From Verrucomicrobiales bacterium (GTDB taxonomy: Bacteria > Verrucomicrobiota > Verrucomicrobiia > Verrucomicrobiales > Akkermansiaceae): 64,000 nt of DNA. The notes beneath the pieces were generated by a model. The model did no database searches and was not told the DNA's origin. It saw only the letters and a program-made list of their open reading frames with translations. The position numbers and the translations under genes were made by a program. Location of the stretch: contig JBBSUD010000002.1 in NCBI GenBank assembly GCA_038235225.1, forward strand, positions 16,270 to 80,269, given 5' to 3'. This document shows, piece by piece, positions 20,111 to 23,423 of this stretch. Position 1 is the stretch's first letter; every line of letters begins with the position of its first letter.

Positions 20111-20244
20111 GCTACTACGCCTTTGGTAGGTGCGGCGCGGGCGGCTGGGGAAAGTTTAACTTTTCCTGATATTCGATGCGTTTTCCCTTGACGCGGGGCG
20201 GACCTACTACTTATGTCGTCGCTAAGCGAAGCGATCCCCGCCAC

Positions 20245-20958
20245 ATGGCACGGCCCCTCCCCATTCCCTCGCATCCGTCCAACCTGGAACTCCAGGCGCT
20301 CACCGTCCTCTGGAACGAGGGACCATCTACGGTATCCGCAGTAGCGGATGGCCTGACCGATGGCCGGGACCGCGCCTACACCACCGTGCTCTCGGTGATG
20401 CAGAGCCTGGAGCGCAAGGGTCTGGTGGTGAAGGAACGCTCCGGCCGCGCGCATGTCTTCGAGGCGGCGATGCCGCGCGGGGAAATCGTCGGCCGCGCCA
20501 CGCGGTCCTTTCTAACAAACGCTTTTGGAGGACGCGCCGGTGAGGCAGTCCTCGCCATCCTCTCCAACGCCGAACTAACGCCGGAAGAGAAAACGAACAT
20601 CGAACGCGAACTCCAACGAACCAAAACTATGGCTGCAAAAAAAACAGCGAAGAAGGCCGCGGCCAAGACCGCCAAGAAAGCCGCGAAGCCGGCTGCCAAG
20701 AAAGCACCGGCCAAGAAGGCCGCCGCTAAAAAGGCAGCCAAGAGCGCGGCCAAATCCCCCGCCAAGAAGGCCGCCGTGAAGAAGGTGGCCAAGAAGGCGG
20801 TGAAGAAAACCGCCAAGAAGGCCGCTAAAAAAGCCGCGAAGAGCGCGGGCGCCGCCACCGCGGCCCCGAAGAAAACCGTCGCCAAAAAGGCCGCCGCCAA
20901 ATCCGCTCCGGCGAAGAAGGCGGCCAAAAAGACGGCGAAAAAAGCTGGCAAAAAATAA
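20245..20958 (+). CDS. BlaI/MecI/CopY-family regulator fused in frame to a Lys/Ala-rich histone H1-like tail
   Basis: ELQALTVLWNEGPSTV...RAYTTVLSVMQSLERKGLV..RSGRAHVF, then 109 aa of AKK/PAKK repeats starting at internal ATG 20629. Confidence 0.85.
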   Translation: MARPLPIPSHPSNLELQALTVLWNEGPSTVSAVADGLTDGRDRAYTTVLSVMQSLERKGLVVKERSGRAHVFEAAMPRGEIVGRATRSFLTNAFGGRAGEAVLAILSNAELTPEEKTNIERELQRTKTMAAKKTAKKAAAKTAKKAAKPAAKKAPAKKAAAKKAAKSAAKSPAKKAAVKKVAKKAVKKTAKKAAKKAAKSAGAATAAPKKTVAKKAAAKSAPAKKAAKKTAKKAGKK

Positions 20959-21012
20959 ACCCTCTCCCGGTCCTGCGGGCACATCGCCGCGGGCGGTTCC
21001 GGGGTTCAACAA

Positions 21013-21046
21013 GGGCGGGGAATCTCCGGATTCCCCGCCTTTTTTC
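21013..21046 (+). terminator. Rho-independent terminator
   Basis: 11-bp stem GGCGGGGAATC/GATTCCCCGCC with a TCCG loop, followed by T6. Confidence 0.85.
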
Positions 21047-21060
21047 GTCGGAAAAAGGGG

Positions 21061-21116: not shown

Positions 21117-21191
21117 GCGCGGTTAGCTCAGTGGTAGAGCACCTCCCTGACACGGAGGGGGTCACTGGTTCGAACCCAGTATCGCGCACCA
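21117..21191 (+). tRNA. tRNA-Val(GAC)
   Basis: Acceptor stem GCGCGGT/ATCGCGC, D-loop AGCTCAGTGGTAGAGC, anticodon arm CCTCC-CTGACAC-GGAGG, GGTTCGAAC, encoded CCA. Confidence 0.97.
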
Positions 21192-21219: not shown

Positions 21220-22071
21220 TTGACTTCCGCGCCTCCAGCCGGGCCGCCGGCCCTCGCCGAGCTCGAAGCCCTGATCCGCCTCCTTGATGACGAAACCCCG
21301 GAGGTGCGCGAAAGGGTCGCGGCACGCATGGCGCTCTGTGGCGGGGATTTGAGCGAATGGCTCGCCTCCCATTCGCGCCCTCTCAGCCTGCGGGAAAAGT
21401 TCATACTGGCGGAAATGCTGCGCCCTGCGCTGCGGGAAAATCTTTCGCGGGAATGGATCGCCCCCACTGGCGGGGCGGCTGCCTTGCAGGAGGATTGGGA
21501 ATCCTTCGAGGCGCTGCTGCGGCTTCTGTCGGATTTCCTGCACGATGGCATCACGCTGCGCCAGCCGCTGTCCGACGCGCTCGACCTGTTGGCGGAGGAG
21601 GCGGCGCAGGCCGGCATCCGCACCGCCCGCGCCCTCGGGGATTTTCTTTTCCCGGACCGGCTGGAGCCAAACGCCACAAGCTACTACGACCCTAGAAACT
21701 CGGACCTCGCGTGGTGCCTCGCGGCCGGCCGCTCGAATCCGCTGGGCCTTTGCCTCATCTTCATCCTCGTCGGCCGGCGGCTGGACCTGGAGGTGGAAGG
21801 CGTGAATTTCCCCGGCCATTTCATGTGCCGCATTTATGAAGACGGATGCCCGATCGTTGTCGATTGCTTCGATGGCGGGCAGCTTCACTACCAAGGCACG
21901 CTGCTGGAGAGTCCGGAACTCGACCGCCGCCGCAAGGCGATCCTGCGGGAAACGGCCGGCCCCGGCGAAATCCTCCTGCGCTTGCTGGGGAATTTACGCA
22001 AATCCCTGGCCGACGCCGGCCGGAAGGAAGACCAGCAGCTCGTCACCCGGCTGCTCAAGACGCTGGCCTGA
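21220..22071 (+). CDS. Transglutaminase-like / SirB1-family protein (start uncertain)
   Basis: YYDPRNSDLAWCL..GRSNPLGLCLIFILVGRRL...GVNFPGHF...VDCFDGG...ILLRLLGNL. Confidence 0.8.
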   Translation: MTSAPPAGPPALAELEALIRLLDDETPEVRERVAARMALCGGDLSEWLASHSRPLSLREKFILAEMLRPALRENLSREWIAPTGGAAALQEDWESFEALLRLLSDFLHDGITLRQPLSDALDLLAEEAAQAGIRTARALGDFLFPDRLEPNATSYYDPRNSDLAWCLAAGRSNPLGLCLIFILVGRRLDLEVEGVNFPGHFMCRIYEDGCPIVVDCFDGGQLHYQGTLLESPELDRRRKAILRETAGPGEILLRLLGNLRKSLADAGRKEDQQLVTRLLKTLA

Positions 22072-22165: not shown

Positions 22166-22828
22166 ATGAATAACTCACCCGGCGAGCCGTCGCAATCCGC
22201 GCGGGAACCTGGCGGTTCCGTCAGCCCGGAATTCCCAACGGATGATCCGGATGACGATTTCCGGCTCGTTGCCCTCGCCCAACAAGGGGACATGAGCGCC
22301 TACGACGAGCTCGTGACCCGCCACCGGGGAAGAATTTTCGCCATGATCCGCAACATGATCCACCAGGAAGCCGACGCGTGGGACCTCGCCCAAGAGGTCT
22401 TCATCAAGGCATGGAAGGCGTTGCCGAAATTCGAGGCGAAGGCGCGCTTCTCGACGTGGATCTACCGGATCGCCCACAACTGCGTCTATGATTGGGCGCG
22501 CAAGCGGAAGCTGCGCAGCGCCGGCGAACTGAATGACGAGATTTTCCAACGGGAGCGCATTGATCCCGCTTCCTTCACCACCCCGTCCGGCGGCGAGTCG
22601 CCGGACGTGACGATGGCGCACGGCGAGTTGCGCGTAAAAATCGAAACCGCTCTCGGCAAGCTCTCCGCGGAGCACCGGGAGGTTGTCGTCCTCAAGGACG
22701 TGCAGGGCTTGTCCTACAAAGAAATCGCCGAGGCCATGTCCTGCAACCTCGGCACCGTGATGAGCCGCCTCTACTACGCGCGGCAAAAACTCCAAGCAAT
22801 GCTCAAAGATGAATACGAATCTCGATGA
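22166..22828 (+). CDS. ECF RNA polymerase sigma factor (RpoE/SigW-like)
   Basis: AYDELVTRHRGRIFA, DAWDLAQEVFIKAWKAL.KF...FSTWIYRIAHN and LSYKEIAE.M.C.LGTVMSRLYYAR. Confidence 0.93.
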   Translation: MNNSPGEPSQSAREPGGSVSPEFPTDDPDDDFRLVALAQQGDMSAYDELVTRHRGRIFAMIRNMIHQEADAWDLAQEVFIKAWKALPKFEAKARFSTWIYRIAHNCVYDWARKRKLRSAGELNDEIFQRERIDPASFTTPSGGESPDVTMAHGELRVKIETALGKLSAEHREVVVLKDVQGLSYKEIAEAMSCNLGTVMSRLYYARQKLQAMLKDEYESR

Positions 22829-23423
22829 AACCACCCTGGCCCTATGGCTGGAAGACGAACTGACCGGCCCTTCGCTAGCGGCAGCCGAGGCGTGGGCGGC
22901 CGGGCAGCCGGACCAGCTTGCCGCCCGCGCGGCCATACGCTCTTGGCGGGCCACCATTGCCGCCGCCATCCCGGCGTCCGAGGAGCCGCCTTATCCGGAT
23001 TTCTTCAACAGCCGCGTGCTGCAAGGCATTCGCGAGTCCGCGCCCGCCGCCGCGCCGGAGCCCGCCCGCCGGGCCGTGCCGTTTTGGAAATCCTGGTTCC
23101 TGCCCGCCGCCGCCTGCGCGGGCATGGCGTTGGCATTCTGGGCCGGCACCATATCCTCCCCCGCCCCGGCAAACGTCGCGAGGCAGACAAATCCGCCGCA
23201 GGCAGCCGCCGCCCCGGTCGTTTACACCCCGGAAAAGGGCGTGAAAGCCGAGTGGTTCGCCAGCTCGCCGGCATCCGCGACGGTCATCGTTCTCAATGGC
23301 GTCGCCGCCATTCCGGATTCCACGGATTTCACCGAAACCGCCTGGCTGCCAACGCCCGGCGAGGCGGATTCCACCGCCGCCCTGGACCGAGAATCCCCGG
23401 CCATCGAACGCCTCACGCCATGA
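22809..23423 (+). CDS. Putative membrane-bound anti-sigma factor
   Basis: Overlaps the ECF gene. N-terminal ASD-like LALWLEDEL and a single TM segment (WFLPAAACAGMALAFWAG). Confidence 0.65.
   Translation: MNTNLDETTLALWLEDELTGPSLAAAEAWAAGQPDQLAARAAIRSWRATIAAAIPASEEPPYPDFFNSRVLQGIRESAPAAAPEPARRAVPFWKSWFLPAAACAGMALAFWAGTISSPAPANVARQTNPPQAAAAPVVYTPEKGVKAEWFASSPASATVIVLNGVAAIPDSTDFTETAWLPTPGEADSTAALDRESPAIERLTP

What the first reader, a model, noticed from the sequence alone, without database searches (positions are those of the whole stretch)
20245..20958. BlaI winged-helix regulator fused to a histone-H1-like tail with its own internal start
Seen: a complete 128-aa BlaI domain continues without a stop into ATG 20629 (A-rich context CAACGAACCAAAACT-ATG). 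That ATG begins a 109-aa MAAKKTAKKAAAK... PAKK-repeat polypeptide, followed by a strong terminator. No BlaR1/M56 sensor gene is adjacent. Known: such Lys/Ala tails mark nucleoid proteins (chlamydial Hc1/Hc2, mycobacterial HupB, AlgP). Inference: one locus makes both a sequence-specific DNA-compacting repressor and a free histone-like protein, a possible way to target nucleoid condensation in PVC bacteria.
Basis: partly seen in the sequence, partly recalled or inferred. Interest (0 to 1): 0.65.

Follow-up and report, generated by a model that had tools for sequence, protein, structure and literature searches.

The report
Repressor gene with nested histone-like protein
A soil/water Verrucomicrobiales bacterium and more than a hundred relatives carry one gene joining a BlaI-type DNA-binding repressor to a lysine/alanine histone-H1-like tail, and a strictly conserved internal start codon preceded by a conserved RNA element suggests the tail is also made alone as a small nucleoid protein, its level held in check by the repressor half.

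Summary
ORF 20245-20958 encodes 237 aa: a BlaI/MecI/CopY winged-helix repressor (Pfam PF03965, E 7e-23; model matches MecI/BlaI, TM 0.70-0.78) running without a stop into a 109-aa tail (K 38%, A 39%) that starts at ATG 20629. A strong terminator follows. The genome has no BlaR1/M56 gene.

The fusion is not an error. It occurs in about 118 orthologous loci across three families of the order. The junction codon is ATG in about 113, GTG in two, TTG in two and lost in one. One genome has the two halves as separate ATGA-overlapping genes.

Around the internal ATG, third-codon-position identity rises from 0.46 to 0.78 (p 2e-10). This matches two conserved sense-strand hairpins and a 38-nt unpaired A/C-rich tract. 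Verrucomicrobiales lack Shine-Dalgarno sequences, so this looks like a genuine internal initiation region.

A conserved TTGACG promoter carries TAC...GTA palindromes of BlaI/CopY type, and I found no credible promoter-located site of this kind elsewhere in the genome. That points to autoregulation.

Best reading (about 0.6): one autoregulated mRNA yields a repressor-tail fusion and a free H1-like protein. I classify it as a new variant of a known kind.

The parts
20115..20129 (+). Distal operator candidate, CTAC-N7-GTAG palindrome (CTACGCCTTTGGTAG), about 130 nt before the main ATG
   Evidence: A palindrome of the same form lies at about -126 to -134 in 29 of 79 orthologous upstream regions. 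Others carry TACGAT-N4-ATCGTA instead. It is one of only 10 such sites in the genome.
20188..20193 (+). -35 hexamer TTGACG of the conserved promoter (family consensus AACTTGACGG)
   Evidence: The hexamer sits 51-59 nt before the main ATG across the 79 orthologous upstream regions. It is also present in the distant families (L015-L019).
20205..20220 (+). Proximal operator candidate TACTAC-TTAT-GTCGTC (family consensus aCTACTAGTTtyaTCGT), overlapping the expected -10 and transcription-start region
   Evidence: It is conserved in position and sequence in the genus. Perfect palindromes sit at the same place in distant families, for example TACGAT-ACGA-ATCGTA in L017 and TTACTA-N6-TAGTAG in L015 and L018. 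The half-site resembles the TACA/TGTA boxes of BlaI, MecI and CopY (PMC7253601).
20245..20958 (+). Full-length ORF, 237 aa: BlaI-type repressor plus Lys/Ala tail (stop TAA at 20956-20958)
   Evidence: Orthologues of 180-305 aa with the same architecture appear. The start at 20245 agrees with the orthologue N-termini M[AS][RK]P[ST]HPSNLELQ.
20278..20616 (+). BlaI/MecI/CopY (Penicillinase_R) domain: winged helix-turn-helix plus dimerisation helices (aa 12-124)
   Evidence: Pfam PF03965, E 6.8e-23. PDB sequence hits are 2g9w, 1sd6, 1okr and 1sd4. Fold match to MecI/BlaI has TM 0.70-0.78.
20528..20553 (+). Hairpin HP1 inside the coding sequence, 76-101 nt before the internal ATG (consensus GGAGGA-CGCCTC-GGT-GAGGCG-C-TCCTC; the inner stem is weaker in the window's own copy)
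   Evidence: It is predicted in every one of 50 sequence variants (-12.8 to -22.8 kcal/mol). 98.3% of cells are paired in 76 sequences, the changes are GC to GU, and the loop varies freely.
20561..20590 (+). Hairpin HP2 inside the coding sequence, 39-68 nt before the internal ATG (consensus TCTCC-GCCGGC...GCCGG-AAGAGA; the inner stem is degraded in the window's own copy)
   Evidence: 98.5% of cells are paired. One pair covaries at two synonymous third positions: C-G in 41, U-A in 23, U-G in 6 and broken in 4.
20591..20628 (+). Unpaired A/C-rich tract (AAACGAACATCGAACGCGAACTCCAACGAACCAAAACT), the proposed Shine-Dalgarno-less ribosome landing site
   Evidence: Codons here are nearly invariant at synonymous sites in 79 species: GAA GAG AAA .. 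GAA CGC GAA CTC CAA CGA. A is 43-50% against 19% background. Equivalent A/C-rich tracts precede the ATG in distant families and in the split variant.
20629..20958 (+). Nested in-frame ORF: proposed free 109-aa histone-H1-like protein starting at internal ATG 20629
   Evidence: The junction codon is ATG in about 113 of 118 orthologous loci, GTG in 2, TTG in 2 and lost in 1. The first six codons use AAA for Lys in 88% of cases against 44% later. G053 encodes the tail as a separate ATGA-coupled gene.
21011..21048 (+). Intrinsic terminator (14-bp G+C stem, loop UCCG, U6)
   Evidence: -50.9 kcal/mol for the folded 95-nt stretch (20956-21050, which also holds a second upstream stem-loop), z -4.5, and 0 of 200 shuffles fold as well.

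Best explanation
This is a monocistronic, self-repressed gene that probably yields two proteins from one mRNA.

1. **Transcription.** A conserved sigma-70-type promoter (-35 TTGACG) carries two TAC...GTA palindromes of BlaI/MecI/CopY type. One overlaps the -10 and start region. A dimer of the winged-helix domain would bind them and shut off its own transcription. This step is inferred from motif conservation and family knowledge.
2. **First product.** Ribosomes starting at ATG 20245 make the 237-aa repressor. Its disordered, polycationic Lys/Ala tail adds non-specific DNA affinity. The sequence shows this directly, because there is no stop.
3. **Second product.** Ribosomes also start at the in-frame ATG 20629. 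Two conserved hairpins hold the upstream coding RNA folded, which leaves a 38-nt A/C-rich single-stranded tract as the landing site. This lineage does not use Shine-Dalgarno pairing. The product is a free 109-aa histone-H1-like protein, the only such protein encoded in the genome, and it coats or compacts DNA non-specifically. This step is inferred from comparative evidence.
4. **Feedback.** Both products come from one repressible mRNA. The sequence-specific half therefore gives feedback control to a nucleoid protein that has no specificity of its own. No BlaR1 sensor exists, and the BlaR1 cleavage site Asn-Phe is Ala-Ile here. The classical proteolytic induction of BlaI does not apply.
For: **Fusion real and old.**
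- 504 protein hits, mostly 205-266 aa.
- 329 loci in reference genomes.
- Orthologues in six genera of the family and in two other families at 41-53% identity.

**Internal start.**
- The junction codon is ATG in about 113 of 118 loci. This includes families whose linkers are unalignable..QQNQTT-M-AVKKK..KNHTGS-M-AKKK..KPKPTTT-M-AAKKK.
- The only substitutions are GTG and TTG, apart from one loss. M and V toggle within one clade.
- Third-position identity is 0.78 in codons -36..+7 against 0.46 upstream, at similar amino-acid identity (0.88 against 0.82). Mann-Whitney p is 1.9e-10, across genomes whose GC3 ranges from 0.34 to 0.90.
- There are two sense-strand hairpins with 98% pairing, GC/GU changes and one covarying pair.
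- The unstructured A-rich context is in the top 0.5% for A content and the top 1.7% for weak folding among internal ATGs.
- A is at -6 in 79 of 79 sequences and at -3 in 68 of 79. At the annotated start the figures are 33 and 3.
- The AAA/GCA codon ramp is confined to the first six codons.
- A split ATGA-coupled version exists in G053.

**Shine-Dalgarno not expected.** The genome shows no such signal. Verrucomicrobiales are reported to lack these sequences globally (PMC10798248).

**Autoregulation.**
- Promoter and operators are conserved.
- The motif is otherwise at or below chance and inside genes.
- This is the only PF03965 gene, there is no M56 gene, and the Asn-Phe site is replaced.

**Only H1-like coding segment in the genome:**
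Against: - There is no protein-level or ribosome-level evidence. No reads could be examined.
- A conserved Met with nearby RNA structure could serve another purpose, such as mRNA stability, a processing site or translational pausing before the polycationic tail.
- Covariation rests on a single pair. The sequences are related, so the shuffle control overstates significance.
- The window's own copies of both hairpins are weaker than the genus consensus.
- One orthologue (L102) has lost the start codon and keeps the fusion, so the free tail is not indispensable.
- The split variant is known from a single metagenome-assembled genome (MAG) and could be a one-base assembly error.
- The operator assignment is by motif only. 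My regex search for further sites was crude and could miss diverged regulon members.
- The noisy start-site set of this genome does not itself show an A at -3 preference.
Confidence: 0.6

Rival explanations
1. There is a single product only. The gene makes just the 237-aa repressor with a polycationic DNA-clamping tail, as in CarD of Anaeromyxobacter or DdbA of Streptomyces. The junction Met is a relic of an old gene fusion or a structural residue. The conserved RNA element serves mRNA stability, processing, or pausing of the ribosome so that the winged-helix domain folds and dimerises before the tail emerges.
For: - The open frame is continuous in more than 110 loci.
- H1-like tails fused to regulators work as one polypeptide elsewhere (PMC2919716; PMC3643593).
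- L102 keeps the fusion without a start codon.
- No expression data are available.
Against: - A relic Met should not stay invariant at 41-53% domain identity while the linkers around it become unalignable.
- It should not be replaced only by GTG or TTG.
- The A-rich, unstructured context, the start-type codon ramp after the ATG and the two-gene variant are all specific predictions of a start site.
- A pausing role would not need an ATG.
Confidence: 0.28
2. There are two products, but by a different route. An internal promoter or an RNase cut at the hairpins produces a separate short mRNA for the tail. The hairpins then act as a 5' stabiliser, and the ATG is the start of that second transcript rather than an internal entry site on the full-length mRNA.
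For: - Two stable hairpins lie just 5' of an unstructured leader and the ATG.
- The constraint extends about 110 nt upstream, which is longer than a minimal initiation region.
Against: - No -35/-10 pair with proper spacing is visible in the conserved stretch by my inspection of the alignment. The TTRACG inside HP2 has no matching -10.
- No transcript data are available.
- This rival differs from the best explanation only in the RNA species that is translated.
Confidence: 0.1
3. Artefact or recoding. Either the fusion is an assembly or strain-specific read-through error, or the A8 run just after the ATG (GCAAAAAAAACAG) is a programmed slippage site that separates the two parts.
For: - In the window the heptamer A_AAA_AAA is in the right phase for a -1 shift.
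- One relative (G053) has the halves in different frames.
Against: - The uninterrupted frame is present in more than 110 independent assemblies.
- The A-run is not conserved: L003, L004, L005 and L007 read AAAGAAA.
- By my hand translation of the sequence, both shifted frames stay open for more than 25 codons, so a shift would give no clean short product.
Confidence: 0.02

Closest known systems
BlaI / MecI (Staphylococcus, Bacillus) and Rv1846c BlaI (M. tuberculosis), Pfam PF03965
   Same: - Same domain by sequence and by fold.
- Dimerisation helices are present.
- Two palindromic TAC..GTA-type operators lie in its own promoter, a distal and a proximal one, as described for BlaI and CopY (PMC7253601).
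   Different: - There is no BlaR1/MecR1 sensor-protease anywhere in the genome.
- The scissile Asn-Phe is Ala-Ile.
- No beta-lactamase or PBP2a target is nearby.
- It carries a 109-aa Lys/Ala tail and a nested start, which the classical proteins lack.
CopY / CopR copper repressors (TIGR02698)
   Same: Same superfamily. The NCBIfam model gives the best hit, E 1.6e-11. The operator logic is related.
   Different: The score of 44.6 bits is far below the equivalog cut-off of 122. The C-terminal Cys-x-Cys metal site is absent, and a Lys/Ala tail sits in its place. No cop genes are nearby.
Regulators with fused histone-H1-like domains: CarD of Anaeromyxobacter dehalogenans (PMC2919716, citing Garcia-Heras 2009) and DdbA of Streptomyces (PMC3643593)
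   Same: A specific transcription-related domain is joined to a Lys/Ala/Pro-rich, H1-like, non-specific DNA-binding region. For DdbA, the H1-like domain binds and condenses DNA in vitro.
   Different: The partner domains differ: an RNA-polymerase-binding CarD or DksA domain there, an operator-binding winged helix here. I know of no report for those proteins of a nested start that also releases the H1-like part alone.
Stand-alone bacterial H1-like proteins: chlamydial Hc1/Hc2, Pseudomonas AlgP, Burkholderia/Bordetella H1-like proteins
   Same: The composition and expected behaviour of the proposed 109-aa product are similar. Some orthologues are flagged with Pfam PF07382 (HC2) in the precomputed annotation.
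   Different: The likeness is compositional. The window's tail does not reach any family threshold, and a homology search with the tail alone found nothing. Here the protein is nested in a repressor gene.
In-frame internal initiation giving two isoforms in bacteria (IF2 alpha/beta, ClpB, CheA; genome-wide in bioRxiv 10.1101/520783)
   Same: One gene gives two in-frame products from an upstream and an internal start.
   Different: By my own knowledge, the known E. coli cases use Shine-Dalgarno-type internal sites. Here the lineage lacks these sequences (PMC10798248), and the site is two hairpins plus an A/C-rich tract. The short product is a different kind of protein, a nucleoid protein, and not a truncated version of the same activity.

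Membership tests
BlaI/MecI/CopY repressor family (Pfam PF03965) | Sequence match to the Penicillinase_R profile above the curated threshold | tested here: met
   E 6.8e-23, 81.6 bits against a cut-off of 22.6, profile positions 2-114 of 115.
BlaI/MecI/CopY repressor family (Pfam PF03965) | Winged helix-turn-helix followed by helical dimerisation domain (fold) | tested here: met
   The model has H13-25, H30-36, H45-57, wing E61-74 and then three helices, with pLDDT 90-94 over residues 11-80. The top 13 PDB matches are MecI, BlaI and Rv1846c, with TM 0.60-0.78.
BlaI/MecI/CopY repressor family (Pfam PF03965) | Palindromic TAC(A)...(T)GTA operators in the regulated promoter | tested here: inconclusive
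   Conserved TAC[TG]A-N-T[CA]GTA palindromes overlap the promoter in three families. Binding was not tested.
Signal-responsive BlaI-BlaR1 / MecI-MecR1 system | Partner M56 sensor-protease (BlaR1/MecR1), usually adjacent | tested here: not met
   No PF05569 match was found in the whole 98%-complete genome. A canonical tail-less BlaI followed by a BlaR1-like (by inspection) membrane ORF exists as a paralogue in another family (L121).
Signal-responsive BlaI-BlaR1 / MecI-MecR1 system | Asn-Phe scissile bond in the dimerisation domain | tested here: not met
   The pair N-F in the stretch ..lvlNF.. of BlaI and MecI aligns to A-I in the stretch ..avlAI... That the Asn101-Phe102 bond is the cleavage site is taken from my own knowledge of the family.
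CopY/TcrY copper repressor (TIGR02698) | Equivalog score and C-terminal CxC metal site | tested here: not met
   44.6 bits against a cut-off of 121.95. There is no Cys in the C-terminal part.
Histone-H1-like / Hc2 / AlgP-type nucleoid proteins | Lys/Ala(/Pro)-rich low-complexity, strongly basic, disordered region | tested here: met
   Tails of 79 orthologues: K 43%, A 37%, V 7%, P 7%, D+E 0.04%, no aromatics, median length 126 aa. pLDDT is below 50.
Histone-H1-like / Hc2 / AlgP-type nucleoid proteins | Homology to a curated family model | tested here: not met
   NF038053 scores 18.5 bits against a cut-off of 80. There is no Pfam HC2 hit for the window's protein. The tail-only search found nothing.
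Histone-H1-like / Hc2 / AlgP-type nucleoid proteins | Non-specific DNA binding and compaction | not testable with these tools
   This needs EMSA, AFM or in-vivo nucleoid imaging.
Genes with in-frame internal translation starts (two isoforms) | Conserved start codon with an initiation-competent context inside the ORF | tested here: met
Genes with in-frame internal translation starts (two isoforms) | Detected second product or initiating ribosomes at the site | not testable with these tools
No proteomic resource was on hand.

The most novel reading that the evidence does not exclude
The locus is a self-contained dosage-control module for a bacterial linker-histone-like protein. The H1-like protein has no sequence specificity, so it cannot sense its own gene. 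It is therefore nested inside, and co-expressed at a fixed ratio with, a sequence-specific repressor that carries the same tail and shuts off the shared promoter.

The two hairpins plus the single-stranded A/C-rich tract would form a previously undescribed type of internal ribosome entry element for a lineage that lacks Shine-Dalgarno sequences. They may also be a site where the polycationic product represses its own translation, as T4 gene 32 protein does on its unstructured leader.
Probability: 0.25. Interest if true: 0.8.

Novelty: new variant of a known kind. Interest (0 to 1): 0.6.

Why it matters
- **Nucleoid proteins in this group.** How abundant, non-specific nucleoid proteins are kept at the right level is poorly understood outside model bacteria. 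I know of no published work on the nucleoid proteins of free-living Verrucomicrobiales, a group noted for condensed nucleoids. If the reading is right, this family gives a simple, testable design: a specific repressor and a non-specific histone-like protein made from one self-repressed mRNA.
- **Translation initiation without Shine-Dalgarno pairing.** The site is a conserved, comparatively well-defined internal start in an order that lacks these sequences. That makes it a natural model for how such ribosomes choose start sites.
- **Annotation.** Databases list these proteins only as 'BlaI/MecI/CopY family transcriptional regulator'. This wrongly suggests a link to beta-lactam or copper sensing, and it hides the probable second product.

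Tried and rejected
1. **Programmed slippage at the A8 run after the ATG.** Rejected. The run is not conserved, and by my hand translation both shifted frames stay open.
2. **Assembly error as the cause of the fusion.** Rejected by more than 110 independent assemblies.
3. **Shine-Dalgarno site for the internal start.** None is present. This is uninformative, because the genome and the order (PMC10798248) do not use them.
4. **Internal sigma-70 promoter in the conserved stretch.** By my inspection, I found no -35/-10 pair with workable spacing. It is not excluded.
5. **Homology search with the tail alone.** 8,000 candidates were scored and none was significant.
6. **Known RNA family for the internal element.** Rfam gave only a sub-threshold chance hit at the terminator.
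7. **Regulon search in the genome with operator patterns.** Hits were at or below shuffle expectation and almost all lay inside coding sequence. No credible second target emerged.
8. **Independent confirmation of the split G053 variant.** An exact-pattern scan of metagenome contigs found nothing. The related-locus scan found only a 35% relative. The protein search showed that its closest relatives, at 57-72% identity, are all fused. The split therefore rests on one MAG.
10. **Literature searches for a described BlaI-H1 fusion or a verrucomicrobial H1-like protein.** Nothing relevant was found.
Full report
**1. The observation**

- Window 20245-20958 (+) is a single open frame of 237 codons ending in TAA.
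- Residues 12-124 match the Penicillinase_R profile PF03965 at E 6.8e-23.
- By sequence the nearest solved structures are Rv1846c (M. tuberculosis BlaI, 2g9w), MecI and BlaI.
- An AlphaFold model built on 13 orthologues has a confident winged helix-turn-helix (pLDDT 90-94), three further helices and a disordered tail. Its best PDB matches are MecI and BlaI chains, with TM 0.70-0.78 and rmsd about 3.1-3.8 A.
- The frame continues through ...ELQRTKT into ATG 20629. It then encodes 109 residues of MAAKKTAKKAAAK... with 38% Lys and 39% Ala.
- A 14-bp G+C hairpin with a U-run follows at 21011-21048, then tRNA-Val(GAC).
- The genome (5.85 Mb, 98% complete) has this single PF03965 gene and no M56 (BlaR1) gene at all.

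**2. The fusion is conserved, not an error**

- A search with the N-terminal 130 residues returned 504 proteins. The best 120 share 69-77% identity and nearly all are 205-266 aa with a Lys/Ala tail. Sources name them Luteolibacter, Haloferula, Akkermansiaceae and Verrucomicrobiales.
- Whole-genome searches found an uninterrupted fused frame in almost every species of the window's genus. It is also in five more genera of the family, and in two other families of the order at 41-53% domain identity.
- One genus of the family, with 2-3 Mb genomes, lacks the gene altogether.
- 329 loci were found in the reference-genome collection.
- Canonical tail-less BlaI genes, followed by an ORF that looks BlaR1-like by inspection, also occur in the order as paralogues (L121). 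The fused form is thus a separate orthologous group.

**3. The junction codon behaves like a start codon**

- I examined about 118 orthologous loci. The codon just before the tail is ATG in about 113 of them (with hand correction of detection misses).
- This holds in families whose linkers differ in length and cannot be aligned. Examples are ..IERELQRHKT-M-AAKK..RATQQNQTT-M-AVKKK..TKTKNHTGS-M-AKKK..EPKPKPTTT-M-AAKKK and ..NNKTETTT-M-AAKKK.
- The exceptions are:
  - GTG in two species of one genus;
  - TTG in two species of another genus;
  - one loss (AAA AAG).
- Within the GTG clade, the closest metagenomic relatives read ..NTK-M-LAAKK where the two genomes read ..NTK-V-LAAKK. This is an ATG/GTG toggle.
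- One genome (G053) encodes the two parts as separate genes. The repressor ends ...KPKENA-TGA, and the tail ORF (MKLKAAKKSAKK..., 52 aa) begins at the ATG of the same ATGA, the classical coupling overlap.
- That variant rests on a single MAG, and all its closest relatives are fused. It is either a derived fission or a one-base error. Either way, the A-rich tract and the ATG are kept.

**4. A nucleotide-level element surrounds the internal ATG**

I compared 79 non-identical genus-level genes from genomes whose GC3 ranges from 0.34 to 0.90.

| Measure | Codons -118..-37 | Codons -36..+7 | Source |
|---|---|---|---|
| Relative synonymous-codon entropy, mean | 0.75 | 0.29 | |
| Third-position identity | 0.46 | 0.78 | |
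| Amino-acid identity | 0.82 | 0.88 | |

- The entropy difference gives Mann-Whitney p 1.9e-10.
- Many codons in the constrained stretch are invariant.
- The constrained stretch contains two hairpins:
  - HP1 is at -101..-76.
  - HP2 is at -68..-39.
  - 98.4% of sequence-by-pair cells are paired, against about 50% when the partners are slid.
  - The variation is almost entirely G-C to G-U, which is compatible only with the sense RNA.
  - HP1's loop varies freely, even non-synonymously.
  - One HP2 pair covaries between two synonymous third positions: C-G in 41 sequences, U-A in 23.
- After the hairpins comes about 38 nt of A/C-rich sequence predicted to be unpaired, and then the ATG.
- Distant families and the split variant share the layout: G+C-rich hairpins, then CAAAACCAAAC-like tracts, then ATG.
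- Caveat: one covarying pair among related sequences is weak by itself, and the window's own hairpins have weaker inner stems.

**5. The context fits what is known of initiation in this lineage**

- I found no Shine-Dalgarno signal before 2,460 likely gene starts of this genome.
- McNutt et al. report that Verrucomicrobiales, like Bacteroidia, globally lack these sequences (PMC10798248).
- In Shine-Dalgarno-less Flavobacterium, initiation is favoured by low structure and by adenines at -3, -6, -12 and -13 (PMC6847099).
- The internal site has A at -6 in 79 of 79 sequences and A at -3 in 68 of 79. At the annotated start the figures are 33 and 3. The internal site is also richer in A (0.45 against 0.30) and less structured.
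- In the window, its A content and weak folding put it in the extreme 0.5% and 1.7% of 21,827 internal in-frame ATGs.
- The first six codons after the ATG use AAA for Lys in 88% of cases and GCA/GCT for Ala in 80%. In the rest of the tail the figures are 44% and 40%. This is a typical 5'-end codon ramp.
- My noisy start set does not itself show an A at -3 preference in this genome. The Kozak-like argument is therefore borrowed from other lineages.

**6. Promoter and operators**

- All orthologues share AACTTGACGG, a -35 element, about 55 nt before the first ATG.
- After about 10 nt comes aCTACTAGTTtyaTCGT. In the window this is TACTACTTATGTCGTC at 20205-20220, where a -10 and the transcription start should lie.
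- Most orthologues have a second palindrome about 130 nt upstream, either CTAC-N7-GTAG or TACGAT-N4-ATCGTA. In the window it is at 20115-20129.
- Distant families have perfect palindromes at the same place, for example TACGAT-ACGA-ATCGTA and TTACTA-N6-TAGTAG.
- The half-sites resemble the TACA/TGTA boxes of BlaI, MecI and CopY, which also come as a distal and a proximal operator (PMC7253601).
- Elsewhere in this genome such palindromes occur no more often than chance and almost always inside coding sequence.
- The Asn-Phe bond that BlaR1 cuts in BlaI and MecI aligns to Ala-Ile here. The identity of that cleavage site is from my own knowledge of the family.
- I infer a signal-independent autorepressor. 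This is inference, and no binding was tested.

**7. Synthesis**

The most economical reading is a self-repressed, strongly promoted, monocistronic gene with two products.

- The long product is a repressor with a polycationic tail.
- The short product starts at 20629. It would be the only histone-H1-like protein the genome can make, alongside two HU/IHF-family genes.

Co-encoding gives a non-specific nucleoid protein a specific feedback loop.

- Shown:
  - the architecture;
  - the conservation;
  - the start-codon-like evolution of the junction codon;
  - the synonymous constraint;
  - the RNA pairing pattern;
  - the promoter and operator motifs;
  - the absence of BlaR1.
- Inferred:
  - that ribosomes start at 20629;
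  - that the tail binds or compacts DNA;
  - that the winged helix binds the palindromes;
  - that feedback control is the purpose.

I put about 0.6 on the two-product model as a whole. I put about 0.9 on the gene being a conserved, BlaR1-independent BlaI-type regulator with an H1-like tail.

**8. Comparison with what is known**

- H1-like regions fused to transcription proteins are established. Examples are CarD of Anaeromyxobacter (PMC2919716) and DdbA of Streptomyces, whose H1-like domain binds and condenses DNA (PMC3643593).
- Earlier unverified notes of this scan list the same tail on DksA, CarD, adenylate kinase and a TrpC-like barrel. Two of those notes suspect internal starts.
- First readers flagged this same BlaI fusion in two other genomes, and neither was followed up.
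- In-frame internal starts are also a known phenomenon (bioRxiv 10.1101/520783).
- What I found no description of is:
  - the pairing of a BlaI-type operator-binding domain with an H1-like tail;
  - the nested start in an order that lacks Shine-Dalgarno sequences;
  - the hairpin-plus-tract element.

I therefore classify it as a new variant of a known kind, of moderate to good interest.

**9. Limits**

- The tail cannot be placed in any family by homology.
- The operator search was pattern-based.
- Genus and family names are inferred from record titles of relatives. They do not come from the window's own record.

Noticed in passing
window 21117-21191: tRNA-Val(GAC) lies on the same strand just after the terminator. 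The same tRNA is within 500 nt downstream in 43 of 73 orthologous loci, so the pairing is conserved synteny.
   Followed up: partly
window 20140-20187, and the same place in L003-L101: An A/T-rich stretch with an inverted repeat (consensus TAAACTTTTCTTAAAAGTTT) lies 10-40 nt upstream of the -35 in most orthologues. It could be an UP element or a site for a second regulator.
   Followed up: no
own genome C84:21010-22878 (-) and C124:9250-11553 (+), outside the window: Two other long ORFs carry Lys/Ala-rich segments. I read them by eye as Rho and the primary sigma factor and did not scan them. The same kind of polycationic region is therefore attached to other nucleic-acid machinery in this genome.
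   Followed up: no
own genome, whole: CTAC-N7-GTAG occurs 20 times, counting both strands, against about 136 in mononucleotide shuffles. This is probably general TA/CTAG avoidance in a 62% G+C genome.
   Followed up: no
L121 (G158:C351:6700-9000): A canonical tail-less BlaI gene (130 aa, 39% identity) is followed directly by a membrane ORF that looks like a BlaR1 N-terminus by eye. Classical sensor-repressor pairs coexist in the order with the fused type.
   Followed up: no
L114 (G110:C18) and L102 (G261:C6): One orthologue has an in-frame TGA inside the winged helix, so it is a pseudogene or an error. Another has lost the junction ATG (AAA AAG) and keeps a long tail.
   Followed up: partly
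window 22166-23423: An ECF sigma factor (Sigma70_r2/r4, Sigma70_ECF) is followed by an overlapping 204-aa ORF with no Pfam match, which is probably its anti-sigma factor. A transglutaminase-like protein lies at 21220-22071.
   Followed up: no
window 20650-20848: The tail is encoded by degenerate 12-nt (AAGAAGGCCGCC) and 51-nt tandem repeats. Tail length varies from 27 to 149 aa among genus-level orthologues. This suggests growth and shrinkage by repeat slippage.
   Followed up: partly
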